Virus record (IMG/VR): IMGVR_UViG_3300028533_000484
Location: 64,001 to 128,000 of that record
Direction: 5' to 3' (one strand)
Source of the DNA: a virus
Lineage: Duplodnaviria > Caudoviricetes
DNA length: 64,000 nucleotides
The position numbers and the translations under genes are program-made. The notes under the pieces were generated by a model. It was not told the DNA's origin. It ran no database searches and worked only from the letters and a program-made list of their open reading frames with translations. Shown here piece after piece: positions 27,918-36,111 of the stretch (position 1 is its first letter; each line of letters starts with the position of its first letter).

Positions 27918-28244
27918 TTAGTTTTTTGTTAAAAAAGTTTCAATTCTGCGGATTCTTTCAGACTGAGAACTTAAGTTTTTTTGAAATCTTTCTATAGATT
28001 CTCGAGTTAATTTCTTTGAAGTACGTTTCATGTTTTTCATTTCAAGAAGAGGATTTTTTACTTCATATTGATCTTCAACATCCTCATTTAATTTTTTCTG
28101 TCTTTTATTAAAATACTTGTTAAAATCTGCATCGAAGTTTTCTTGGAGATCTTGAAGCTCAAGCTCGTAATCTCTAGCTTGCATGTAATCAAAATCATCA
28201 AAATTAACAGTATCATTGTATGACATATCTAATAAATTATTCAT
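27918..28244 (-). CDS. hypothetical protein
   Basis: ACTAAA motif upstream; LNE/LLE motifs. Confidence 0.7.
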   Translation of the reverse strand: MNNLLDMSYNDTVNFDDFDYMQARDYELELQDLQENFDADFNKYFNKRQKKLNEDVEDQYEVKNPLLEMKNMKRTSKKLTRESIERFQKNLSSQSERIRRIETFLTKN

Positions 28245-28288
28245 ATATATATGATTTAGTTCTTACAAACAGAAAAAAGAACTTTTTT

Positions 28289-28317
28289 GAAATATTTATA
28301 TAGTTATAAACTATAAT
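28289..28317 (+). promoter_or_regulatory. GAAA-N18-CTATAAT promoter of the tRNA region
   Basis: Same motif and spacing as at least 10 other intergenic sites. Confidence 0.65.
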
Positions 28318-28357
28318 ATTACTGAAGCAAATATTAAATTAAAGTTTCTTTAACAAC

Positions 28358-28429
28358 GCATCTATAGCTTAATGGATAAAGCTTCTACCTCCTAAGTAGA
28401 GGATGCAGGTTCGATTCCTACTAGGTGCT
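28358..28429 (+). tRNA. tRNA-Arg(CCT)
   Basis: Cloverleaf; TCTAC-CTCCTAA-GTAGA. Confidence 0.9.
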
Positions 28430-28530
28430 AAAGGTTGGCAGTCAAACCTTTAAGACTCCATTTTTTCTTCTGGAAATATTTTGATTTATTTTCAGAAGAA
28501 AATTAAACTTATAACAAGTGAGGTACAGAA

Positions 28531-28692
28531 TTGGAAAGATTGGAAAGAATTGTAGATTGGCTTTTCGATACACATGATAAGGTTTTGTTTGTTGAAGATA
28601 TTAGTGGTTTTGGAGCTCTATTTCTTTTTGGAACTATGATTTTTGTTGCTGTGTTGTGTTGCAGCAAAAAGCTCAGAAGCAAGTTCTTTTAG
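28531..28692 (+). CDS. small membrane protein (53 aa, not in ORF track)
   Basis: GAGGT RBS, TTG start, hydrophobic segment. Confidence 0.5.
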   Translation: MERLERIVDWLFDTHDKVLFVEDISGFGALFLFGTMIFVAVLCCSKKLRSKFF

Positions 28693-28750
28693 GTGAATTT
28701 TTCAGATTGCACTAACTATATTACAAGCATAAATTGAAGGAGTAGATATC

Positions 28751-28861
28751 ATGACAAAGACATTTGTAACATCTAATAACATGACAAGTTCTTATCAATG
28801 CTGTGATACTATCCAATATTCATATTGTTCGTCAATCTATTTTAGAGGTGACAACAGTTGA
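28751..28861 (+). CDS. leader peptide 1 (36 aa) MTKTFVTSNNMTSSYQCCDTIQYSYCSSIYFRGDNS
   Basis: Promoter motif 28695-28722, GAAGGAG RBS, stop overlaps antiterminator arm. Confidence 0.75.
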   Translation: MTKTFVTSNNMTSSYQCCDTIQYSYCSSIYFRGDNS

Positions 28862-28923
28862 CCTTGTGCAAATAAAAAATGTTTGAAGAGTTGCACAGGG
28901 TTCCTAGAAATAGGAACTTTTTT
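28860..28923 (+). promoter_or_regulatory. attenuator 1: antiterminator (28860-28871/28891-28902) competing with terminator (28897-28923)
   Basis: GACCTTGTGCAA pairs TTGCACAGGGTT; AGGGTTCCTA-GAAA-TAGGAACTTT-TTT. Confidence 0.75.
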
Positions 28924-28940
28924 ATTCTTCAAACAAGTTT

Positions 28941-29021
28941 GGGTCAGTCGAGCAATTGGTTGCTCAGCGGACTGTAAATCCGTGGCCTATGGCATTGGGG
29001 GTTCGAATCCCTCCTGGCCCA
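28941..29021 (+). tRNA. tRNA-Tyr(GTA)
   Basis: Cloverleaf with variable arm; GCGGA-CTGTAAA-TCCGT. Confidence 0.92.
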
Positions 29022-29116
29022 ATATCACATTAAATCAACCAGTTTGTGAAAAGAGTTAATTTTTTTAACTATAATTAAATTATTAGCACTAATTAATTAA
29101 AGAAGGAGAAAAGATT

Positions 29117-29260
29117 ATGAAAAATTTTGTAACAAAACATTCGAACATAATTACAAAACAGATGTGTCAATCTGCTCTCCATACACTTTGCAATATTTTT
29201 GCTGACTCTGATTTTCAAACTAATGGGAAAGTGAAATGCGAAGGAGACTTCAAGTCTTGA
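29117..29260 (+). CDS. leader peptide 2 (47 aa) MKNFVTKHSNIITKQMCQSALHTLCNIFADSDFQTNGKVKCEGDFKS
   Basis: Promoter motif 29048-29075, GAAGGAG RBS, last codons and stop form antiterminator arm. Confidence 0.75.
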   Translation: MKNFVTKHSNIITKQMCQSALHTLCNIFADSDFQTNGKVKCEGDFKS

Positions 29261-29321
29261 GATAATTAATAATTTAGTTATTTACAAGGCTTGAATCGAA
29301 AAGGTTCAAGCCTTTTATTTT
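29249..29321 (+). promoter_or_regulatory. attenuator 2: antiterminator (29249-29295) competing with terminator (29286-29321)
   Basis: TTCAAGTCTTG pairs CAAGGCTTGAA; AAGGCTTGAATC-GAAAA-GGTTCAAGCCTT-TTATTTT. Confidence 0.8.
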
Positions 29322-29325
29322 GCTT

Positions 29326-29398
29326 AGGATGTTAGTACACCGGTTTAGTATTTTAGTCTGATAAACTAAAGAAAGAAGTTCAACTCTTCTACATCCTA
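29326..29398 (+). tRNA. tRNA-Ile(GAT)
   Basis: AGGATGT/ACATCCT acceptor; TTAGT-CTGATAA-ACTAA. Confidence 0.85.
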
Positions 29399-29402
29399 TA
29401 TA

Positions 29403-29629
29403 GTTAAACAAAAGCGTCGATTAAAACTGGTTCGAGTAATTGAGGTAACGTTCAGTAAATGAAAGAACAAAGATAATAACGGACTGAGGTAGAAACATTG
29501 TCAATCTTGGGTGTCCTGCCCGTCAGAAGAGTAATACTCTTCTTCAAGAATAAGGTGACGGATTGATGGTGTTGAAGGTTGGCTGGAGACGGCAGCGATA
29601 AATCCAGTTGAGTTTGACTTATTTTTAAC
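29403..29629 (+). ncRNA. candidate structured ncRNA (~225 nt)
   Basis: Ends pair (AACTGG/CCAGTT, GTTAAA/TTTAAC); inner CCGTCA/TGACGG and GAAGAG/CTCTTC. Confidence 0.45.
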
Positions 29630-29696
29630 ATTTTTTATGAAACAGCAATTAGCTTTTCAACTATAATATATATGTTAAAAATATTAAATTATTTAT

Positions 29697-29770
29697 AGTT
29701 CCATAGAACAACAGGTCCAGTTCACGGCCCTTTCAAGGCTGAGATCCGAGTTCAAGTCTCGGTGGAACTA
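29697..29770 (+). tRNA. tRNA-Glu(TTC)
   Basis: CGGCC-CTTTCAA-GGCTG; own promoter motif at 29639-29667. Confidence 0.9.
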
Positions 29771-29970
29771 AAGCTTATGTTCCTAACGGTTCGACTCCGT
29801 ATGAAAATCTTGAACTGTATAAGTGCGGTATAAGCCCGATGAGATGTCAAGATATAAACGGCATAGGAAAGGAAGCATCTGACTTAAGGTTTCAGGATAC
29901 AGTAGTAAACCTAGCGAAGTAGCGAAGGCCAAGTGAAAAGCGAACTCTTGCAAGAATCCCTTATAATGGG

Positions 29971-30051
29971 TGAAAGTTATAGTATAATGGAAATACAACA
30001 GCCGAGGTTATCTGGGCTGGAGATTGAAGGTTCGAGTCCTTCTGACTTTCA
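29971..30051 (+). ncRNA. tRNA-like RNA with aberrant anticodon arm
   Basis: Acceptor, D and T arms intact; CAGCC-GAGGTTATCTG-GGCTG (11-nt loop). Confidence 0.7.
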
Positions 30052-30056
30052 TATTT

Positions 30057-30130
30057 GCATCAGTAGCTCAGTTGGTTAGAGCGCCTGCCTTCCAAGCAGG
30101 ATGTCGAGGGTTCGAGCCCCTTCTGGTGCT
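30057..30130 (+). tRNA. tRNA-Gly(TCC)
   Basis: CCTGC-CTTCCAA-GCAGG. Confidence 0.95.
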
Positions 30131-30132
30131 CT

Positions 30133-30298
30133 AGGTGCAGCAATGCCGTGGATAGCACGTTACTAGGACTAATCTAATTGTACAAAGGAATTAGCCAGAG
30201 GATATGGTAACATACCTCGTTCTACGACTAGGTTGTTAAGGATGTTATACCTGACGTGAGACAGCCATAAAGGTTTCGTTTAGAAGATTGCTGCACCT
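30133..30298 (+). ncRNA. candidate structured ncRNA (166 nt)
   Basis: Perfect 12-bp closing stem AGGTGCAGCAAT/ATTGCTGCACCT with internal hairpins. Confidence 0.55.
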
Positions 30299-30373
30299 TT
30301 AAGCAGGTTGAAACGAATAGAAACTGAATCGAAAGATTCTAATGTAGGAGTAAGCACAAGAAGCTTATTGCAT

Positions 30374-30446
30374 GGGATATTGGTAAAATGGTGCATACGC
30401 CTGACTGTCACTCAGGAGAGCGCGAGTTCAATTCTCGCATATCCCG
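30374..30446 (+). tRNA. tRNA-Asp(GTC)
   Basis: CCTGA-CTGTCAC-TCAGG. Confidence 0.9.
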
Positions 30447-30455
30447 TTTTTTCTT

Positions 30456-30551
30456 GGACTGGTCGTATAGAGGTCAATTACAGGAGGAATGCGGTCCATT
30501 GGACCAAAGCCTCCTGCCATAGCTACGTAGGTTCGAATCCTACCCAGTCCG
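30456..30551 (+). ncRNA. tRNA-like RNA with hairpin inserted in the anticodon loop
   Basis: GGACTGG/CCAGTCC acceptor, perfect T arm; GGAGG-AATGC-GGTCC-ATT-GGACC-AAAG-CCTCC. Confidence 0.7.
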
Positions 30552-30560
30552 TAATGCATT

Positions 30561-30634
30561 GGAGTGTTAGCTCAGTTGGTAGTAGCAAGCGGCTGTTAAC
30601 CGCTAGGTCGCAGGTTCGAGTCCTGCACACTCCG
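30561..30634 (+). tRNA. tRNA-Asn(GTT)
   Basis: AGCGG-CTGTTAA-CCGCT. Confidence 0.95.
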
Positions 30635-30642
30635 AAAACCTT

Positions 30643-30710
30643 AACATCTTACCTTTATGGTCCTAGGGCTGTAATGTTAGGTGGGGACCACCGGAGATGT
30701 TCCTAACATT
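30643..30710 (+). ncRNA. compact pseudoknotted element
   Basis: AACATCTT/GAGATGTT, TGGTCCT/GGGACCA, loop AATGTTAGG pairs CCTAACATT. Confidence 0.55.
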
Positions 30711-30717
30711 GTTTTAT

Positions 30718-30790
30718 GCTACCTTAGCAAAATGGCTAATGCGCGTGATTTGTAATCTCGAGATTGTGGGTTCGAGTCCTACAGGTAGCT
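30718..30790 (+). tRNA. tRNA-Thr(TGT)
   Basis: CGTGA-TTTGTAA-TCTCG (one stem mismatch). Confidence 0.88.
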
Positions 30791-30792
30791 TT

Positions 30793-30865
30793 CGCGGATG
30801 GGTGAAACGGAATTCATGCCAGCCTCATAAGCTGAAGATAGCAGGTTCGACTCCTGTATCCGCAA
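30793..30865 (+). tRNA. tRNA-Met(CAT), initiator-like (C1:A72)
   Basis: CGCGGAT/ATCCGCA; CCAGC-CTCATAA-GCTGA. Confidence 0.85.
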
Positions 30866-30867
30866 TA

Positions 30868-30995
30868 AAAACATTTAGCGGTTTGTGAAAGTGGAAGGCA
30901 TTCCTTTGGACGACATGAAAGTCATAGCAAATCATAATCGAAACTGGTAAGCCTTAGCGCTGAGTACACTTACCGTTGAGTAGGCTAAATGTTTT
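30868..30995 (+). ncRNA. candidate structured ncRNA (128 nt)
   Basis: Perfect 12-bp closing stem AAAACATTTAGC/GCTAAATGTTTT; inner GGTAAG/CTTACC. Confidence 0.5.
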
Positions 30996-30999
30996 ACAT

Positions 31000-31071
31000 C
31001 GCCTGTTACCCAAGCAGTAAGGGAGCGGTCTGCAAAACCGTAATTCATAGGTGCAAATCCTATACAGGTGT
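31000..31071 (+). tRNA. tRNA-Cys(GCA)
   Basis: GCGGT-CTGCAAA-ACCGT, U73. Confidence 0.9.
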
Positions 31072-31075
31072 CTAA

Positions 31076-31231
31076 GGAATGGTAGCTTAGTCAAAAATAG
31101 TTTAGAAACTGCGCTGGCCGGTCGGCGGTTATAAATACTGAATTATTCAGTGTTAGGAAGCCTAAATGAAATATGCAGGAAAAGCGCTAACGAAACGTTA
31201 GAGAGTGTAAGTTCGAATCTTACCTATTCCT
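31076..31231 (+). ncRNA. tRNA-like RNA with ~90-nt D-loop insertion and collapsed anticodon loop
   Basis: GGAATGG/CTATTCC, GCTT/AAGC, CTAACG-AAA-CGTTAG, GTAAG-TTCGAAT-CTTAC. Confidence 0.65.
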
Positions 31232-31298
31232 TGAGGTAGATATAGGTGTTCGGTGCAAGTCCGGATTTAAGATAGTCAAGCCTTAAGCTACCATAAAA

Positions 31299-31505
31299 GT
31301 GGAGACTTCTGTGACTATACAGAAAACTATAGCAACATCTCAGCCAAGTGTTAATAATTGCTCTTTAGATAGTAAAATCGAAAGAGCTTATATGAAAGGC
31401 GCGCTTGCAATGTATGAGTTTTTGCAAGAAGAAAAATTAGTGCCTATTATAACAACTGGGTGTCAAGAAATGTTATGGAAAAAGTTTAAGGAAAAGAATA
31501 GCTAA
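31299..31505 (+). CDS. small hypothetical protein
   Basis: ORF between RNA genes; start uncertain. Confidence 0.5.
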   Translation: METSVTIQKTIATSQPSVNNCSLDSKIERAYMKGALAMYEFLQEEKLVPIITTGCQEMLWKKFKEKNS

Positions 31506-31566
31506 TTCGCATGCTTTCTTGATATATTGGATTACAGGTCTATGAAAATGACTTGTTTTTTTACAT

Positions 31567-31638
31567 TCCTCCATAGTGTAGTTGGTAGCACTTGAGAATT
31601 TGGGTCTCACAGGCTGGGTTCGAGTCCTAGCGGAGGAA
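31567..31638 (+). tRNA. tRNA-Gln(TTG)
   Basis: TGAGA-ATTTGGG-TCTCA. Confidence 0.88.
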
Positions 31639-31640
31639 AT

Positions 31641-31701
31641 AAAGCAAAGGTTGTTCCTATTAAAAGTTATTTTATTGGAAAAATTGTGTACAACCCGCTT
31701 T
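31641..31701 (+). repeat. GTTGTTCCTATT...TACAAC motif copy 1
   Basis: Conserved with 34987-35062 and 35394-35470. Confidence 0.7.
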
Positions 31702-31707
31702 AATTTT

Positions 31708-31780
31708 GGGCTGTTCGTATATCGGCTTATTACACGGGCTTTGCAAGCCTGATAGAGGGGTTCAACTCCCCTACGGTCCA
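31708..31780 (+). tRNA. tRNA-Ala(TGC)
   Basis: G3:U70 pair; CGGGC-TTTGCAA-GCCTG. Confidence 0.92.
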
Positions 31781-31810
31781 CTAAAAAAGTCTTCTGTTAG
31801 AAGATTTTAT

Positions 31811-31892
31811 GGGTTTGTGTTGGAATTGGTATACATCGGGGTCTTAGAAGCCTCGGCCGAAAGGATTGAGAGTTCGAGTCTCTCCAAGCCCA
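31811..31892 (+). tRNA. tRNA-Leu(TAG)
   Basis: GGGGT-CTTAGAA-GCCTC, variable arm. Confidence 0.9.
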
Positions 31893-31896
31893 TCAT

Positions 31897-31968
31897 CCAA
31901 ACTTGGTGTCAGCGGTAGCACAGCGGACTGAAGATCCGTTAGCTGGGGTTCAAATCCCTGAGTTTGGA
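31897..31968 (+). tRNA. tRNA-Phe(GAA)
   Basis: GCGGA-CTGAAGA-TCCGT. Confidence 0.85.
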
Positions 31969-31975
31969 CTAATAT

Positions 31976-32048
31976 GTTGAAGAAGTTCATACGGTTGAAC
32001 GCTGCCCTCATAAGGCAGATGTAGTAGGTCCGAATCCTGCCTTCAGCA
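31976..32048 (+). tRNA. tRNA-Met(CAT), elongator (or Ile2 if lysidine-modified)
   Basis: CTGCC-CTCATAA-GGCAG. Confidence 0.85.
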
Positions 32049-32050
32049 AT

Positions 32051-32123
32051 GTACCCATAGTGTTAGTGGTTAGCACGGAAGATTGTGGATCTTCAAGGTC
32101 GGGTTCAAATCCCGATGGGCACC
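32051..32123 (+). tRNA. tRNA-His(GTG)
   Basis: GAAGA-TTGTGGA-TCTTC, C73. Confidence 0.9.
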
Positions 32124-32130
32124 TTTATTT

Positions 32131-32166
32131 GGAAAGTTGGCACAGCGGCGACTGCAACGGTCTTGA
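32131..32166 (+). pseudogene. 5' half of a tRNA-Ser(TGA), truncated just after the anticodon
   Basis: GGAAAGT-TG-GCAC-AGCGGCGAC-TGC-A-ACGGT-CT-TGA then unrelated T-rich sequence. Confidence 0.75.
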
Positions 32167-32187
32167 TTCTTTTTTACCAATTAATGT

Positions 32188-32928
32188 ATGGGAAGAATTA
32201 AAGATACAGAAAAGATTTTACAAAATGCTAAAGAAGGTAATTGTATTTTCTGCAGCAAAGTTTGCAAAAATCAAAATAGCTTTAGGCAGCATCAAGTACG
32301 TTGTAAGTACAATCCAAATAGAAGAGCTATATGGTTGCACAACGATGTTTGGAGAGCTTCTGTTAAGAATAGAAAAGTAGCTGTACAGGTAAAAGATCAG
32401 TTTATTTGTAAATTTTGTAAAAAATGTTGGCTTACTACTGTAAGCGGTTATAAAAATCATGAACTGCATTGCAGAGAGAATCCTTGCAGAAAAGCAGGAT
32501 CCTTTACAGGCAGAACTGTTTCGGAAGAAACTAAAAAGAAAATCTCTGCGACAGGTAAGAGTCGAAAATCCTTAGGAGGATATCGATTTGGAAGTGGTAG
32601 AGGTAAAAAAGGAACATATAAGGGTTATTATTGTGATTCATCTTGGGAACTCGCTTATGTGATTTTCAATCTTGAACATAATATAAAGTTTGAAAGAAAC
32701 GAAGAACTTTTTCCTTATGAGTTTAATGATGAACAGCATAAATATAAGCCTGATTTTATTGAAGGCGACATTTATGTTGAAGTAAAAGGGTATTATACTG
32801 AACAAGTCAATGCAAAGACAAAAGCCTTTCCTTATAAACTTAAGTTCCTTGATAAAGAGACAATTAAGCCGTATATTGACTATGTTGTATCAAAATATGG
32901 TCAAGATTATATACGACTTTATGAATAA
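32188..32928 (+). CDS. free-standing homing-type endonuclease (two Cys/His fingers, NUMOD3-like motif, PD-(D/E)XK domain)
   Basis: CIFC..HQVRC, CKFC..HELHC, VSEETKKKIS, DSSWE...YKPDF...YVEVKG. Confidence 0.8.
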   Translation: MGRIKDTEKILQNAKEGNCIFCSKVCKNQNSFRQHQVRCKYNPNRRAIWLHNDVWRASVKNRKVAVQVKDQFICKFCKKCWLTTVSGYKNHELHCRENPCRKAGSFTGRTVSEETKKKISATGKSRKSLGGYRFGSGRGKKGTYKGYYCDSSWELAYVIFNLEHNIKFERNEELFPYEFNDEQHKYKPDFIEGDIYVEVKGYYTEQVNAKTKAFPYKLKFLDKETIKPYIDYVVSKYGQDYIRLYE

Positions 32929-33019
32929 GGAAGTGTTGAGCAGTTGGTAGCTCTCCTGACTTGAAATCAGGCGATTGCCTTGGAAAGGCGTCATGCAGGT
33001 TCGAATCCTGTCGCTTCCG
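32929..33019 (+). tRNA. tRNA-Ser(TGA)
   Basis: CCTGA-CTTGAAA-TCAGG, long variable arm, G73. Confidence 0.92.
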
Positions 33020-33053
33020 TAAATCTTTGTTGTAATTAAATATAAAGATTTTA

Positions 33054-33240
33054 ATAGAACTTGCAACACTTAGAGGCATTAAAGTTTTGAACTCGTCACT
33101 CAAGACTGCTGCTCAAAGAGATGATGAAGCTCGTGTCCCACGGCAAGTCTATAATGGTGATTCACAGTAGCCACTCAACTTCATCAGAGAAAAGAATCCC
33201 GCCGAGTAGGACGTTCGATACAGATTCTGAGTACTGTGAA
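33054..33240 (+). ncRNA. two adjacent stem-closed candidate ncRNA domains
   Basis: ATAGAACTTGC/GCAAGTCTAT and TTCACAGTA/TACTGTGAA. Confidence 0.4.
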
Positions 33241-33244
33241 ACAA

Positions 33245-33317
33245 TGGACTCGTGCTCGATGGTTTTGAGCAACGGTCTTATAAGCCGTCACACAGAGTTC
33301 AATTCTCTGGGGTCCTA
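33245..33317 (+). tRNA. tRNA-Ile(TAT)
   Basis: ACGGT-CTTATAA-GCCGT; U1:U72 mismatch. Confidence 0.8.
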
Positions 33318-33429
33318 AAAAACGAGTTAAGGAATATAATATGAAGAAGAAACAGAGGCCTTAACTTTCTGTTCAAGTCCATTGGAATAGAAAGTGGCCA
33401 GATTAAATGGAAACACAATTTATTTTAAT

Positions 33430-33506
33430 GGACCGTTAGCTCAGTCTGGGTTAAGAGCAATGCCCTTTTAAGGCGTGGGTCGTGAGTTCGAATCTCACAC
33501 GGTTCA
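33430..33506 (+). tRNA. tRNA-Lys(TTT) copy 1
   Basis: ATGCC-CTTTTAA-GGCGT. Confidence 0.93.
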
Positions 33507-33511
33507 ACCTT

Positions 33512-33586
33512 CTACCCGTGACGCAGTCTGGTTAGCGTACAAAACTTTTAATTTTGGGGTCGTGAGTTCGAATCTCACCGGGTAGA
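33512..33586 (+). tRNA. tRNA-Lys(TTT) copy 2
   Basis: CAAAA-CTTTTAA-TTTTG. Confidence 0.9.
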
Positions 33587-33590
33587 CTAC

Positions 33591-33662
33591 CCGCTTATAA
33601 CTCAACGGTAGAGTGGCGAACTCTTAATTCGCAGGTTCTCAGTTCAAATCTGAGTAGGCGGA
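33591..33662 (+). tRNA. tRNA-Lys(CTT)
   Basis: GCGAA-CTCTTAA-TTCGC. Confidence 0.93.
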
Positions 33663-33676
33663 CTTTTATAAAAAAT

Positions 33677-33749
33677 ATGAGTATGGTATAATGGATAGTG
33701 CCTTTGGCTACGAACCAAATGAATGGGAGTTCGATTCTCTCTACTCACA
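33677..33749 (+). tRNA. tRNA-Arg(ACG)
   Basis: TTTGG-CTACGAA-CCAAA. Confidence 0.85.
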
Positions 33750-33755
33750 CAATTT

Positions 33756-33827
33756 CGTTCTCTAACTCAATGGTGGAGTGCCGCTTTTACACAGCGGAGG
33801 TTGTAGGTTCAAGTCCTACGGGAACGA
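33756..33827 (+). tRNA. tRNA-Val(TAC)
   Basis: CCGCT-TTTACAC-AGCGG. Confidence 0.92.
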
Positions 33828-33834
33828 CTTTAGG

Positions 33835-34239
33835 TGTCAAAGTAACTTAAAAGGGTTTGACAAAATCGATACGACCAGAGCACTGCTGCAGCGTCCCTCC
33901 TGGTTTTGTGTAGGCCTAAAACTATATTTTTGATATAAAGGTGTGCTCTGACCTAGCTTAGATTAGGTGTGAAGGGATAATCTAGCGACAACAAAATGTT
34001 GTAAGAACTAAAGAGAATTTATGCAGTAGTTACTAAAAGTATGACGGTTAAGTGGATGTTCCGCTTCCGTAGAACTGCCAAGGCACGAATCTACAACTCA
34101 AGTAGTTGTATTTATCAGTAAAGGTGATTAAAAGAAAAGCATAATTTTAATCTGATTTTAATATCAAACCAAGACCTTGCAGGCGGGTGTGTGCATTACG
34201 AGCACCCTAAGCGGCTTCACCGCATCGGGCATTTTTTTT
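33835..34239 (+). ncRNA. ORF-free structured region, one or more candidate ncRNAs
   Basis: TGTCAAA/TTTGACA, CAGAGCAC/GTGCTCTG, TACAACT/AGTTGTA, GGGTG/CACCC hairpins, ends in T-run. Confidence 0.4.
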
Positions 34240-34429
34240 GAAAACTATAATGAAATAAAAACCTGTAAGGTAATAGATGTGACAGTCTAGGAAGTAATCA
34301 GGTGTTTTCTAGCTTTCGTAAACTAGATATTGGAGTGCTACGTAAGTTATAGATATGAATTTATGTATGTGGAAGCTTCCTAAATTCTTTATTTATAACA
34401 TGCCAAGAAGTCGAAACAGTAGCAATTTT

Positions 34430-34503
34430 GGTCTATTGGAGAAGTTGGAGTACTCGCCTGACTGTCACTCAGGAAATCACAGGTTCAAGTCCCGTATAGA
34501 CCG
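34430..34503 (+). tRNA. tRNA-Asp(GTC) copy 2
   Basis: CCTGA-CTGTCAC-TCAGG. Confidence 0.9.
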
Positions 34504-34531
34504 TAATCAAAAGCTTGTACGAGGTATAAAA

Positions 34532-34699
34532 ATGAAAGTTTTGAAAAAAATATTTCTTTTCATTAAAAAAGCTTTTTTAATTTTAACCGAAGAAAACCCA
34601 AAAGACAAGAATTGTTTAAATTGTGGTTGGAGAAATTCTAAAGATAGATATGCTTGCAAATTGTGTAGTCCAACAGATTTATCTGAATGGATTCCGTAA
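34532..34699 (+). CDS. 55-aa Cys-containing protein (start moved from 34355)
   Basis: GAGGT RBS before ATG 34532; CLNC...CKLC; the longer frame overlaps tRNA-Asp. Confidence 0.6.
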   Translation: MKVLKKIFLFIKKAFLILTEENPKDKNCLNCGWRNSKDRYACKLCSPTDLSEWIP

Positions 34700-34731
34700 G
34701 CGAAAACTATATTAATACCAATAATATAAAT

Positions 34732-34804
34732 GACTGTGTAGCTCAACTGGATGAGCACAAACCTTCTAAGTTTGCGGATGCAGGTTCGAATCCTGTCACA
34801 GTTA
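34732..34804 (+). tRNA. tRNA-Arg(TCT)
   Basis: CAAAC-CTTCTAA-GTTTG. Confidence 0.92.
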
Positions 34805-34806
34805 AA

Positions 34807-34980
34807 TAAAGAATGTATACCTCTATTGCTACGAGTCTATGGAATTCCTCGTTGAAATAAAAAGGTAGTACTTGGGGGAACATTGAGAGTTCGATGATGG
34901 TATAATTCTCTCTGAACTGATGAGGAAGGATTCAGTTGAGTTGACTAGCAGATAGCAATCTAGTCTCAATTCCTTTTACA
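34807..34980 (+). ncRNA. duplicated ~175-nt structured RNA, copy A
   Basis: Near-identical to 35939-36111, with a compensatory change. Confidence 0.65.
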
Positions 34981-34986
34981 AGAGTG

Positions 34987-35062
34987 AAGTGCATAGGTTG
35001 TTCCTATTTAAAAGCTACTTAGGGCTCGTAAGGGCTCTGCCATTTTTATACAACTCGCACTT
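34987..35062 (+). repeat. GTTGTTCCTATT...TACAAC motif copy 2
   Basis: Closed by AAGTGC/GCACTT. Confidence 0.7.
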
Positions 35063-35072
35063 TTTATTTTAC

Positions 35073-35143
35073 TCCTCCGTAGTGTAATGGTAGCACGCGA
35101 GATTCTGGTTCTTAAAGTGAGGGTTCGAATCCTTCCGGAGGAA
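35073..35143 (+). tRNA. tRNA-Gln(CTG)
   Basis: GAGA-TTCTGGT-TCTT; TCCTCCG/CGGAGGA. Confidence 0.9.
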
Positions 35144-35276
35144 AGCACATTTGCAGAGGCCTACTAGCAAAATTGAGGAACGGCAATTCCAATAGATTAG
35201 CGAAAAATGGTTGTAGGGACAAGCTCATACCGTTGCCGCGAATGAGTGAGAGTGAGTTCAACTCCCGCTAGGTGCT
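35144..35276 (+). ncRNA. candidate RNA ending in a T-arm/acceptor-like module
   Basis: AGCAC/GTGCT ends, GTTCAACTC T-loop, CGGCAA/TTGCCG potential pseudoknot. Confidence 0.4.
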
Positions 35277-35286
35277 CTTTTTATAT

Positions 35287-35367
35287 CGGTCTGTGGTGTA
35301 ATTGGCAGCCACGCATGACTTAGGATCATGTGTCTTTGACGTGAGAGTTCGAGTCTCTCCAGGCCGA
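35287..35367 (+). tRNA. tRNA-Leu(TAG) copy 2
   Basis: CATGA-CTTAGGA-TCATG, variable arm. Confidence 0.9.
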
Positions 35368-35376
35368 CTACTTAAA

Positions 35377-35495
35377 ACATTGAAAAAGATCTAGCATAAG
35401 TTGTTCCTATTTTATGAGTGAACTGGATCTTCACGGCTACCACCGTGAATGTATAGAGTATACAACTCGCAGCCTTTTGTACCTTTTTCAATGTT
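35377..35495 (+). repeat. GTTGTTCCTATT...TACAAC motif copy 3 inside a 13-bp outer stem
   Basis: AACATTGAAAAAG/CTTTTTCAATGTT. Confidence 0.7.
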
Positions 35496-35583
35496 AAAAG
35501 GCGACTAATTGATGTGGTTTAAAAACCTATTTAGGTGGTCTTAATGAAGCTTAAGTGTACTCCAGCCTTTATAAAATCTGTTG

Positions 35584-35856
35584 CAAGAAAACCTATTGAT
35601 CTTTAGTCAATAGGATGAATTGCAACTCTATATTTAAAGATGATTGAAATCCAAGTTAGACACAGGGATCGATAAATTCGGTGCAAATCATAAAACTTAG
35701 CTAGACATAGCTCTAGCATAGTACCCAGGGGACCTGGGGAAATTATAAATGCCTGTGGAGAACCACGAAGTTCTATGAAGCAGGAAATTTCCGTAGCATC
35801 GCTGAAAACAGTGTAAATACGGAAGCTGATGGATCTTCAGTCCATCGGTGGTTCAC
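35584..35856 (+). mobile_element. non-autonomous IS200/IS605-family remnant (both end hairpins plus omegaRNA-like segment, no transposase/TnpB ORF)
   Basis: Left CCTATTGA-TCTTTAG-TCAATAGG; right CTGATGGA-TCTTCAG-TCCATCGG...GTTCAC; GCCTGTGGAG...TGAAGCAGGAA. Confidence 0.7.
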
Positions 35857-35938
35857 CTTTAACAAAATGGCCAGGGAGCCCTAACGGATGCTGGGCGGCT
35901 TAATGATGTTACTGAATGGTGGTAACCCATTTTGTTTA

Positions 35939-36111
35939 TAAAGAATGTATACCTCTATTGCTACGAGTCTATGGAATTCCTCGTTGAAATAAAAAAGCAA
36001 TACTTGGGGGAGCGTTGTGAGTTCGATGAAGGTTAACTCTCTCTGAACCGATGAAGGAAGGATTCGGGAGATTTGACTAGCAGATAGCAATCTAGTCTTA
36101 ATTCCTTTACA
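35939..36111 (+). ncRNA. duplicated ~175-nt structured RNA, copy B
   Basis: See copy A. Confidence 0.65.

What the first reader, a model, noticed from the sequence alone, without database searches (positions are those of the whole stretch)
28695..29021. Leader-peptide attenuator controlling a phage tRNA-Tyr gene
Seen: promoter motif, then GAAGGAG RBS, then a 36-codon ORF with four TAT (Tyr) codons in its distal part ending TGA at 28861. GACCTTGTGCAA (28860-28871, overlapping the stop) can pair with TTGCACAGGGTT (28891-28902), which overlaps the 5' arm of an intrinsic terminator AGGGTTCCTA-GAAA-TAGGAACTTTTTT. tRNA-Tyr(GTA) starts 18 nt later. Established: this is the geometry of ribosome-mediated attenuation. 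Inference: a ribosome reaching the stop blocks the antiterminator and transcription ends, while stalling (e.g. host tRNA-Tyr cleaved by an anticodon nuclease) permits read-through. The phage would then make the tRNA on demand. I know of no description of attenuation controlling phage tRNA genes.
Basis: partly seen in the sequence, partly recalled or inferred. Interest (0 to 1): 0.92.

Follow-up and report, generated by a model that had tools for sequence, protein, structure and literature searches.

The report
Leader-ORF terminator switch before phage tRNA-Tyr
A giant gut phage places a promoter, a short translatable mini-gene and a transcription stop signal directly in front of its tRNA-Tyr gene. 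The layout resembles a bacterial attenuator, but the switch here is weak and its link to tyrosine codons is not shown; the neighbouring unit before tRNA-Ile is the clearer case.

Summary
The window is part of a 140-kb jumbo-phage record (33.5% GC, 27 tRNA genes).

What I confirmed for this unit:
- A promoter of a motif family that recurs in this genome.
- An SD and a 36-codon ORF with four TAT codons.
- A hairpin plus U-run terminator.
- tRNA-Tyr follows 14-18 nt later, with no room for a promoter of its own.
- The 12-bp alternative helix over the stop codon is real (z -3.4).

What weakens the reading:
- The helix competes only for the bottom 1-4 pairs of the terminator.
- In the commoner strain variant the helix and a 9-bp terminator coexist.
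- Tyr enrichment is weak (p 0.10; 0.03 in relatives).
- Two of the five Tyr positions vary among near-identical strains.
- No diverged relatives exist, so covariation cannot be tested.

The best support comes from the adjacent unit before tRNA-Ile. It has the same geometry with a fully exclusive 21-bp antiterminator, but no Ile enrichment.

My best reading is a translation-sensing attenuator that is not shown to be Tyr-specific (about 0.45). A leaky terminator or processing hairpin is nearly as likely (0.35). Unchecked notes from this scan report similar units in other phages. I found no publication describing this.

The parts
28694..28722 (+). Promoter-like element P1: TGAAT (-35-like), then AACTATATT (extended -10; TATATT at 28717-22). 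The predicted start of transcription is about 28729.
   Evidence: The composite motif TGAAD-N13-17-AACTATAWT occurs 8 times in the 140-kb record. Five are in the tRNA array, directly upstream of tRNAs or of the two leader ORFs, and three are upstream of SD-led protein genes. It is conserved in L008 and L009. In L002 the -10 reads TATATC and the spacer is 1 nt longer.
28736..28742 (+). Shine-Dalgarno sequence GAAGGAG, 8 nt before the ATG (AAAGGAG in the relatives).
28751..28861 (+). 36-codon leader ORF. TAT codons are at 28793-95, 28817-19, 28823-25 and 28838-40. Codon 18 (28802-04) is TGT here and TAT in every relative. The stop is TGA at 28859-61.
   Evidence: The ORF is open in all 4 strain variants. 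Against L002 there are 1 synonymous and 4 non-synonymous changes. The peptide is an orphan: only its own cluster among 1.84 billion representatives.
28845..28865 (+). Small hairpin that can take up the 5' part of helix strand A. It is a weak analogue of the 1:2 pairing of classical attenuators.
   Evidence: Its loop-closing pair is broken in L002 (G28857A), so it is not firmly conserved.
28860..28871 (+). Strand A, the 5' strand of the alternative (antiterminator-like) helix. It overlaps the stop codon.
   Evidence: It is invariant in the relatives.
28880..28891 (+). Strand B, the 5' strand of the outer helix that encloses the terminator.
   Evidence: lowest-energy fold. In L002 the first pair is lost and the rest are kept.
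28891..28902 (+). Strand A', the 3' strand of the alternative helix. It shares 28897-28902 with the 5' arm of the terminator.
28897..28926 (+). Intrinsic terminator: a 10-bp stem (the bottom three pairs are A-U, G.U, G.U), a GAAA loop, then TTTTTTATT. Relatives carry an extra C after 28916, which gives an 8-bp perfect core.
   Evidence: -10.6 kcal/mol; -13.9 in relatives; C insertion in all other strains.
28924..28935 (+). Strand B', the 3' strand of the outer helix. It is transcribed after the U-run and ends 5 nt before the tRNA.
28941..29021 (+). tRNA-Tyr (anticodon GTA). No CCA is encoded.
   Evidence: About 2 differences from L002.
29047..29399 (+). Sister unit. It has promoter P2 (TGAAA 29047-51, AACTATAAT 29067-75), an SD at 29102-08 and a 47-codon ORF at 29117-29260 (stop TGA). 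A 21-bp antiterminator hairpin at 29249-29295 takes up the whole 5' arm of a 12-bp terminator at 29286-29314, which is followed by TTATTTTG. tRNA-Ile(GAT) starts at 29325.
   Evidence: (antiterminator -21.4, terminator -17.4 kcal/mol, mutually exclusive).

Best explanation
The stretch is a self-contained transcription unit: promoter P1, a short translated leader ORF, a conditional intrinsic terminator, and tRNA-Tyr. It most likely works as a ribosome-occupancy (translation-sensing) attenuator.

Proposed mechanism:
- A ribosome that keeps up with RNA polymerase and sits on the last codons or the TGA stop covers strand A (28860-71). The full 10-bp terminator then forms and transcription ends before the tRNA.
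- If the ribosome lags or stalls anywhere in the leader, A pairs with A' and takes the bottom pairs of the terminator stem. Termination weakens and polymerase runs into tRNA-Tyr.
- In read-through RNA the outer helix B:B' plus the hairpin then forms a long stem just 5' of the tRNA. This is possibly a processing or stability element.

Shown: the parts, their order, the alternative pairings and their energies, their conservation in close strains, and the replicate design next door.

Inferred: that the leader is translated, that the hairpin terminates, and that ribosome position sets read-through. Tyr codons may add to the stalling, but Tyr-specific sensing is not shown.
For: 1. tRNA-Tyr can only be transcribed through the hairpin and U-run. 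About 14 nt separate the U-run from the tRNA, and P1 belongs to a recurring promoter motif family that elsewhere in the array sits directly before tRNAs.
2. There is a strong SD at good spacing, and the ORF is open in all strains.
3. Helix A:A' is 12 bp and -15.4 kcal/mol with z -3.4. It is the lowest-energy fold at the moment A' has been transcribed.
4. Of 23 terminator-like hairpins in the record, this one and the next have the largest competitor stabilisation: -10.1 and -12.1 kcal/mol, against 0 to -6.4 for the others.
5. The stop codon lies inside or at the edge of the competitor's 5' strand in both units. Both use TGA, the rarest stop in this genome (9 of 99 long ORFs).
6. The sister unit has a fully exclusive antiterminator. 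Its 5' strand is a near copy of the terminator's 3' arm. The three strain differences in it fall in the loop or keep the pair: G.U to A-U, and A-U to G.U.
7. Amino-acid changes in both leaders look neutral: 1 synonymous to 4 non-synonymous, and 2 to 7. That suits leader peptides better than functional proteins.
8. Intrinsic terminators sit at gene ends across this genome, so its transcription appears to respond to them.
Against: 1. In this unit the overlap of antiterminator and terminator is only the bottom 1-4 pairs. The core hairpin pair has P = 0.99 whether or not A is free. In the commoner variant (extra C) the lowest-energy fold with A free is a 7-bp helix beside a 9-bp terminator with a U6 run. 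The bottom G-C pair then has P = 0.65, against 0.22 in the window's variant.
2. There is no covariation. All relatives are at least 91% identical and the region is nearly invariant.
3. The leader peptide has no homologues beyond its own cluster. Retention of the ORF over so few substitutions carries no statistical weight.
4. The host is unknown. Strong SD use and low GC hint at Firmicutes, where from my own knowledge transcription-translation coupling can be loose.
5. There is no transcript evidence. The RNA-library runs are held only as contigs and may contain DNA.
Confidence: 0.45

Rival explanations
1. Constitutive, leaky terminator or processing and stability hairpin. On this reading the 36-codon ORF is an ordinary orphan mini-gene, or the body of a roughly 200-nt small RNA made from P1. 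The hairpin and U-run simply end or stabilise that RNA, and a fixed fraction of polymerases read through to give tRNA-Tyr. RNase P cleavage at the tRNA 5' end would leave the long B:B'-plus-hairpin stem as a protective 3' end. A:A' would be incidental or structural, not a ribosome-controlled switch.
For:
- A:A' and a 7-9-bp terminator coexist in the model.
- Tyr enrichment is not significant. Ser (7 of 36) and Cys (3 of 36) are more enriched than Tyr (for the sequence, for background frequencies).
- Small SD-led ORFs are scattered through the array without switches, for example 31311-31505 and 34532-34699.
Against: - The same promoter / short ORF / stop-overlapping competitor / terminator / tRNA design occurs twice in tandem with unrelated stem sequences.
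- These two have the two strongest competitor pairings of 23 terminators.
- In the sister unit the competitor fully excludes the terminator. That is hard to explain for a plain terminator.
- The amino-acid substitution pattern does not look like a protein under selection.
Confidence: 0.35
2. One reading: a Tyr-codon-specific feedback attenuator. Ribosomes stall at the TAT codons when charged tRNA-Tyr is scarce, for example after cleavage of host tRNA-Tyr by a defence nuclease. Only then is phage tRNA-Tyr made. This is a special case of the best explanation.
For: - There are 4 TAT codons in 36 here, and 5 in 36 in L008 and L009 (p = 0.03). In those two, five Tyr fall within 16 residues (p = 0.0008 for that window, chosen after seeing the data).
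- One strain lost Tyr23, yet every relative has Tyr18, so the count stays at 4-5.
- In all relatives a convergent LRR gene follows tRNA-Tyr, so the unit controls this single tRNA.
- Depletion of tRNA-Tyr by the retron-Eco7 effector PtuAB, and rescue by phage T5 tRNA-Tyr, are documented (PMC11555353).
Against: - p = 0.10 for the window's own peptide.
- The Tyr codons are scattered, not a run.
- Two of five Tyr positions vary among strains that are at least 91% identical.
- The sister leader before tRNA-Ile(GAT) has 3 Ile in 47 residues, 6.4% against a background of 6.7%.
- In a design where stalling anywhere frees strand A, no particular codon is needed.
Confidence: 0.15
3. Factor-dependent or timed antitermination that does not depend on leader translation. 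A phage or host protein, or a modified polymerase, reads through both terminators at a set stage of infection. The alternative helices would be binding or processing sites, for example for RNase III on the long stems.
For: Two terminators in tandem at the head of a same-strand tRNA array resemble gated operons. The long, nearly perfect stems (21 bp in the sister unit, roughly 22 bp of B:B' plus hairpin here) are the size of RNase III substrates (the enzyme preference is from my own knowledge).
Against: - No recognisable antiterminator protein site or Rfam family matched.
- This reading does not explain why the stop codons of SD-led ORFs sit in the competitor strands in both units.
Confidence: 0.05

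Closest known systems
Leader-peptide (ribosome-mediated) transcription attenuators of amino-acid operons (trpL, pheL, hisL, thrL, ilv leaders of enterobacteria; textbook knowledge; pheL reviewed in PMC3082878)
   Same: A promoter-proximal short ORF with an SD. An intrinsic terminator before the regulated gene. An alternative helix whose 5' strand lies under a ribosome stopped at the leader's stop codon. About 65 nt from the stop codon to the end of the U-run. A TGA stop.
   Different: The regulated gene is a tRNA, not a biosynthetic operon. There is no run of regulatory codons. The helix competes for only the bottom 1-4 pairs of the terminator. The 1:2-type protector hairpin is weak and not conserved. 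An additional outer helix encloses the terminator. The host is probably not a proteobacterium. There is no sequence or Rfam relationship.
uORF-dependent attenuators that respond to general ribosome stalling (antibiotic-responsive leaders found by Term-seq in Firmicutes, and erm/cat-type leaders; from my own knowledge, not checked here)
   Same: Sensing of ribosome progress in general rather than of one amino acid. This is the behaviour suggested by the sister unit, which has no cognate-codon enrichment. The setting is a low-GC, SD-rich genome.
   Different: Those leaders control resistance genes or ABC-F genes and often rely on specific arrest peptides. No arrest motif is evident here.
Dedicated strong promoter for tRNA-Tyr in phage T5 (Azam et al. 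2024, PMC11555353)
   Same: A phage tRNA-Tyr gene with its own expression control, inside a tRNA-rich region. The biological context is supply of tRNA-Tyr.
   Different: T5 is described as over-expressing tRNA-Tyr from a strong promoter. No leader ORF or terminator switch is described there.
The sister unit before tRNA-Ile in the same window (29047-29399), and unchecked scan notes of leader attenuators before tRNA genes in other phages
   Same: The same parts in the same order. The two leader peptides are weakly similar at the N-terminus (MTKTFVT against MKNFVT; pairwise E = 0.003).
   Different: The sister unit's antiterminator fully excludes its terminator. This unit's does not. The stem sequences are unrelated.

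Membership tests
Leader-peptide (ribosome-mediated) transcription attenuator | A short ORF with a working ribosome-binding site, close to the promoter | tested here: met
   GAAGGAG lies 8 nt before the ATG, and the 36-codon ORF is open in all strains. The promoter motif ends 28 nt before the ATG. Translation itself is not shown.
Leader-peptide (ribosome-mediated) transcription attenuator | An intrinsic terminator between the leader ORF and the regulated gene, with no promoter in between | tested here: met
   A 10-bp hairpin (-10.6 kcal/mol; -13.9 in relatives) plus a U6 run ends about 14 nt before the tRNA. Its termination activity was not measured.
Leader-peptide (ribosome-mediated) transcription attenuator | An antiterminator structure that is mutually exclusive with the terminator | tested here: inconclusive
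   The 12-bp helix A:A' exists (z -3.4) and gives the second-strongest competitor stabilisation of 23 terminators. It shares only the bottom 4-6 nt. The core terminator pair keeps P = 0.99. In the commoner variant a 9-bp terminator coexists with a 7-bp helix.
Leader-peptide (ribosome-mediated) transcription attenuator | The antiterminator's 5' strand lies within the footprint of a ribosome at the end of the leader | tested here: met
   The stop is at 28859-61 and strand A at 28860-71. The footprint size is textbook knowledge.
Leader-peptide (ribosome-mediated) transcription attenuator | Regulatory codons for the cognate amino acid or tRNA are enriched in the leader | tested here: inconclusive
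   4 of 36 Tyr gives p = 0.10, and 5 of 36 in L008 and L009 gives p = 0.03. The codons are scattered, and 2 of 5 positions vary among close strains. The sister leader has 3 of 47 Ile, which is no enrichment.
Leader-peptide (ribosome-mediated) transcription attenuator | Alternative pairings kept in evolution (covariation) | not testable with these tools
   Only 4 distinct strain variants at 91% identity or more were found. The leader, the 53-aa neighbour and the 47-aa sister peptide have no other homologues. More distant relatives (50-58% amino-acid identity) have no tRNA array at this site.
Leader-peptide (ribosome-mediated) transcription attenuator | Read-through depends on translation of the leader | not testable with these tools
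   This needs a reporter, Term-seq or a coupled in vitro assay. The public RNA-library runs are held only as contigs.
T-box riboswitch (tRNA-sensing antitermination) | Stem I with a specifier loop, a conserved T-box sequence and an antiterminator bulge | tested here: not met
   No Rfam match other than tRNAs in 28200-36000 at E up to 1.

The most novel reading that the evidence does not exclude
The unit, with its sister before tRNA-Ile, is a feedback homeostat for phage tRNA supply. The phage tests decoding speed on a throw-away mini-gene and transcribes tRNA-Tyr only when ribosomes lag. In the strict version they lag at TAT codons, because a defence nuclease such as PtuAB has destroyed the host's tRNA-Tyr. 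This would extend classical leader-peptide attenuation to tRNA genes and to phage counter-defence.
Probability: 0.15. Interest if true: 0.85.

Novelty: new variant of a known kind. Interest (0 to 1): 0.58.

Why it matters
Phage tRNA genes are usually treated as constitutive supplements for codon usage, or as spare parts against tRNA-cutting defences. If a phage gates single tRNA genes with a translated leader and a conditional terminator, it would be measuring the host's decoding capacity and answering with tRNA synthesis. That control logic is so far known only for amino-acid and resistance genes. It would also give a small, portable sensor of translation speed. For this unit the case is only moderate. 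The adjacent tRNA-Ile unit is the better object for a first experiment.

Tried and rejected
- **Close and distant relatives.** Scans of IMG/VR with the neighbouring 334-aa and 586-aa proteins and with the tRNA-Tyr 5' half found nothing. The 36-aa peptide was too short for the search for related loci and the search for homologous proteins.
- **INPHARED phages.** The only matches were tRNA-Tyr genes of Mycobacterium phages at 78% identity, which is not informative.
- **Homologue searches.** Searches with the 53-aa, 47-aa and 36-aa products returned only their own close clusters. The other hits to the 36-aa peptide are repetitive proteins of 274-977 aa matching in several short stretches, which I did not treat as relatives.
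- **Distant relatives L005-L007.** They carry flagellin-like genes where the array sits here and have no tRNAs within 10 kb. Their whole records could not be searched.
- **RNA evidence.** Three metatranscriptome-labelled runs hold the stretch only as contigs at depths like DNA. One 299-nt contig in X2 spans 28729-29024, which is the predicted start of transcription to the tRNA 3' end and so bridges the terminator. It has depth 4, comes from one study and may be DNA. In X5 a 1.5-kb contig runs on into the neighbouring insertion. I draw no conclusion on transcript ends or read-through.
- **Other switches in the array.** A search for further ORF/switch/tRNA units (31260-31580, 34800-35300) found none.
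- **Paralogy of the two leader peptides.** Pairwise E = 0.003 over 25 residues. This is suggestive only.
- **T-box or other known RNA family.** No match.
- **Recoded stop.** TGA is used as a stop by 9 of 99 long ORFs, and reading through it would run across the tRNA. Rejected.

Full report
**Setting.** The window is bases 64001-128000 of a 140,446-base IMG/VR virus record that CheckV rates about 35% complete. That makes it a jumbo phage. It has 33.5% GC, a GroEL-like chaperonin, topoisomerase II subunits and a baseplate wedge protein. Twenty-seven tRNA genes lie on the + strand between 28358 and 35368. The runs that hold near-identical sequence are mostly animal gut and faeces metagenomes.

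**Observation.**
- GAAGGAG lies at 28736-42, 8 nt before the ATG.
- The ORF is 36 codons, 28751-28861, with TAT at codons 15, 23, 25 and 30. The stop is TGA at 28859-61.
- The hairpin AGGGTTCCTA-GAAA-TAGGAACTTT lies at 28897-28920 and is followed by T6ATT.
- tRNA-Tyr(GTA) lies at 28941-29021 (Rfam 54 bits). ARAGORN adds one base at each end.
- The proposed alternative helix, 28860-71 with 28891-902, is 12 bp and -15.4 kcal/mol. Only 2 of 200 shuffles fold as well (z -3.4).

- *A third helix.* Bases 28880-91 pair with 28924-35 and enclose the terminator. With it, the lowest-energy fold of 28845-28940 is -30.7 kcal/mol (z -4.4), and that fold is not the antiterminator conformer. Because its 3' strand lies after the U-run, this helix cannot influence the termination decision. 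It would form in read-through RNA, 5 nt before the tRNA.
The unit does, however, carry TGAAT (28694-98) ... AACTATATT (28714-22). The composite motif TGAAD-N13-17-AACTATAWT occurs eight times in the record. Five are in the tRNA array: directly before tRNA-Arg(CCT), this leader, the next leader, tRNA-Glu and tRNA-Arg(TCT). Three are before SD-led protein genes. The stretch is therefore very probably a transcription unit of its own, starting near 28729.

**How good is the switch?** Snapshots that mimic transcription show three states.
- When A' has just been made and A is free, the 12-bp helix is the lowest-energy fold.
- When A is masked, as under a ribosome on the stop codon, the full 10-bp terminator forms (-10.8 kcal/mol).
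- When A is free and the 3' arm is present, the model puts a 9-11-bp helix beside a residual 5-7-bp hairpin.

The competition therefore concerns only the bottom of the terminator stem. In the ensemble the core C-G pair of the terminator has P = 0.99 in every variant. The bottom G-C pair has P = 0.22 in the window's variant. It has P = 0.65 in the variant carried by all other strains (L002/L003, L008, L009 and runs X1, X2, X5), which have an extra C after 28916 and hence a stronger stem. From general knowledge of intrinsic termination, the pairs at the base of the stem next to the U-run matter a great deal, so a modulating effect is plausible. As a two-state switch, though, this unit is marginal.

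**Is it more than chance?** I listed 23 terminator-like hairpins in the whole record. For each I computed how much the 70 nt upstream stabilise a fold that uses the terminator's 5' arm. This unit scores -10.1 kcal/mol and the next one -12.1. The other 21 range from 0 to -6.4. The two outliers are adjacent, and both are preceded by the promoter motif and a strong SD. In both, the stop codon of the short ORF lies in the competitor's 5' strand. Both stops are TGA, the rarest stop in this genome (9 of 99 long ORFs).

**The sister unit (29047-29399).**
- It has promoter motif P2, GAAGGAG at 29102-08 and a 47-codon ORF at 29117-29260.
- The last three codons and the stop open a 21-bp hairpin at 29249-29295 (-21.4 kcal/mol).
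- The outer 11 pairs of that hairpin (TTCAAGTCTTG with CAAGGCTTGAA) take up the entire 5' arm of a 12-bp terminator at 29286-29314 (-17.4 kcal/mol, followed by TTATTTTG).
- tRNA-Ile(GAT) starts 10 nt after the U-run.
- The 5' strand of the hairpin is a near copy of the terminator's 3' arm, which is the classic attenuator design.
- Strain differences in this hairpin fall in the loop (29270) or keep the pair: 29277 G.U to A-U, and 29253 A-U to G.U.
- The two leader peptides are weakly alike at the N-terminus (E = 0.003), while their stems are unrelated.

This neighbour was flagged by an earlier first-stage note, and I verified it here. It is the main reason I rate the attenuator reading as high as I do.

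**Tyr specificity.**
- Tyr is 4.9% of residues in long ORFs. Four in 36 gives p = 0.10, and five in 36 (L008, L009) gives p = 0.03.
- Ser (7) and Cys (3) are more enriched in the peptide than Tyr.
- Among strains at least 91% identical, codon 18 is Cys here and Tyr elsewhere. Codon 23 is His in L002 and TAC in L008.
- The sister leader has 3 Ile in 47 residues, against a background of 6.7%.
- No other small ORF in the array shows cognate enrichment.
- In a design where any delay of the ribosome frees strand A, specific codons are not required.

I therefore favour general sensing of translation speed. I give the strictly Tyr-specific version about 0.15.

**Evolution.**
- The only relatives that carry the unit are close. 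L002/L003 are about 91% identical in DNA overall. L008 and L009 are closer still.
- From the SD to the tRNA end I count about 11 differences from L002 in the alignment, roughly 96% identity, so the unit is moderately better kept than average.
- The ORF has 1 synonymous and 4 non-synonymous changes against L002. The sister ORF has 2 and 7. This looks neutral at the protein level, which fits leader peptides or non-coding RNA.
- No change disrupts A:A', the terminator or B:B' beyond one terminal pair, but no pair covaries either.
- The leader peptide, the sister peptide and the upstream 53-aa membrane protein have no homologues outside this clade.
- Relatives at 50-58% protein identity have flagellin-like genes at this position and no tRNAs nearby.
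- In all close relatives a 2.7-kb insertion follows tRNA-Tyr at 29039/29043. It holds a convergent LRR-repeat gene and a 207-212-aa gene. There the unit controls tRNA-Tyr alone.

**Known systems and novelty.** The mechanism class, leader-peptide attenuation, is textbook. Full-text searches found no description of it in front of phage tRNA genes. [quoted passage not shown] Unchecked notes of this scan report similar leader/terminator units before tRNA genes in several unrelated phages. I did not test them and do not count them as evidence. They do show that the scan has met this idea before on other DNA.

**Verdict.**
- Ribosome-occupancy-sensing attenuator of tRNA-Tyr: about 0.45, of which the Tyr-specific version is about 0.15.
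- Leaky terminator or processing hairpin without ribosome control: about 0.35.
- Factor-dependent read-through: about 0.05.
- The remainder is unassigned.

This is a new variant of a known kind. Interest is moderate to high, and the sister unit is the stronger experimental entry point.

Noticed in passing
window 29047-29399: A second promoter / 47-codon ORF / switch / tRNA-Ile unit. A 21-bp antiterminator (29249-29295) fully excludes a 12-bp terminator (29286-29314). It is a much cleaner attenuator candidate than the unit under review, and it has no Ile-codon enrichment.
   Followed up: yes
window 28288, 28694, 29047, 29638, 34684 (+ strand); 52467, 65272 (- strand); also G000:C1:55159: A recurring composite promoter-like motif, TGAAD-N13-17-AACTATAWT, sits directly upstream of tRNAs and of SD-led genes. 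It is probably a promoter class of this phage, with a sigma-A-like -35/-10 and an AAC extension.
   Followed up: partly
window 29039-29043; L002 4214-6937; L008 647-3331: All close relatives carry a roughly 2.7-kb insertion between tRNA-Tyr and the second unit. It holds a 650-aa LRR_5 repeat protein on the opposite strand and a 207-212-aa gene. The window's genome lacks it.
   Followed up: partly
window 33341-33364: A seven-codon mini-ORF (M-K-K-K-Q-R-P; codons AAG AAG AAA) lies behind an AAGGAA SD, about 65 nt before three consecutive tRNA-Lys genes. There is no U-run terminator. An earlier scan note also flagged it.
   Followed up: partly
window 32617-32925: The 805-nt spacer before tRNA-Ser matches a 604-aa DUF7487 protein of a distant relative (L007 142-1956; 29% identity, E = 2e-8). 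This is probably a remnant or a small version of a mobile nuclease gene inside the tRNA array.
   Followed up: no
L005 5517-7668; L006 5526-7635; L007 5494-7629: More distant relatives of this jumbo phage (50-58% protein identity) encode flagellin-like proteins (Flagellin_N/C, and FlaA in L006 and L007) exactly where this phage has its tRNA array. Synteny breaks at window 28244.
   Followed up: partly
window 28462-28505: An inverted repeat (TTTTCTTCTGGAAA ... TTTTCAGAAGAAAA) lies after tRNA-Arg(CCT). It is absent from L002/L003, where about 40 nt are deleted. The 53-aa membrane-protein ORF that follows starts with TTG here and with ATG in all relatives.
   Followed up: no
window 28859-61 and 29258-60: Both leader ORFs end in TGA, which ends only 9 of 99 long ORFs in this record.
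   Followed up: partly
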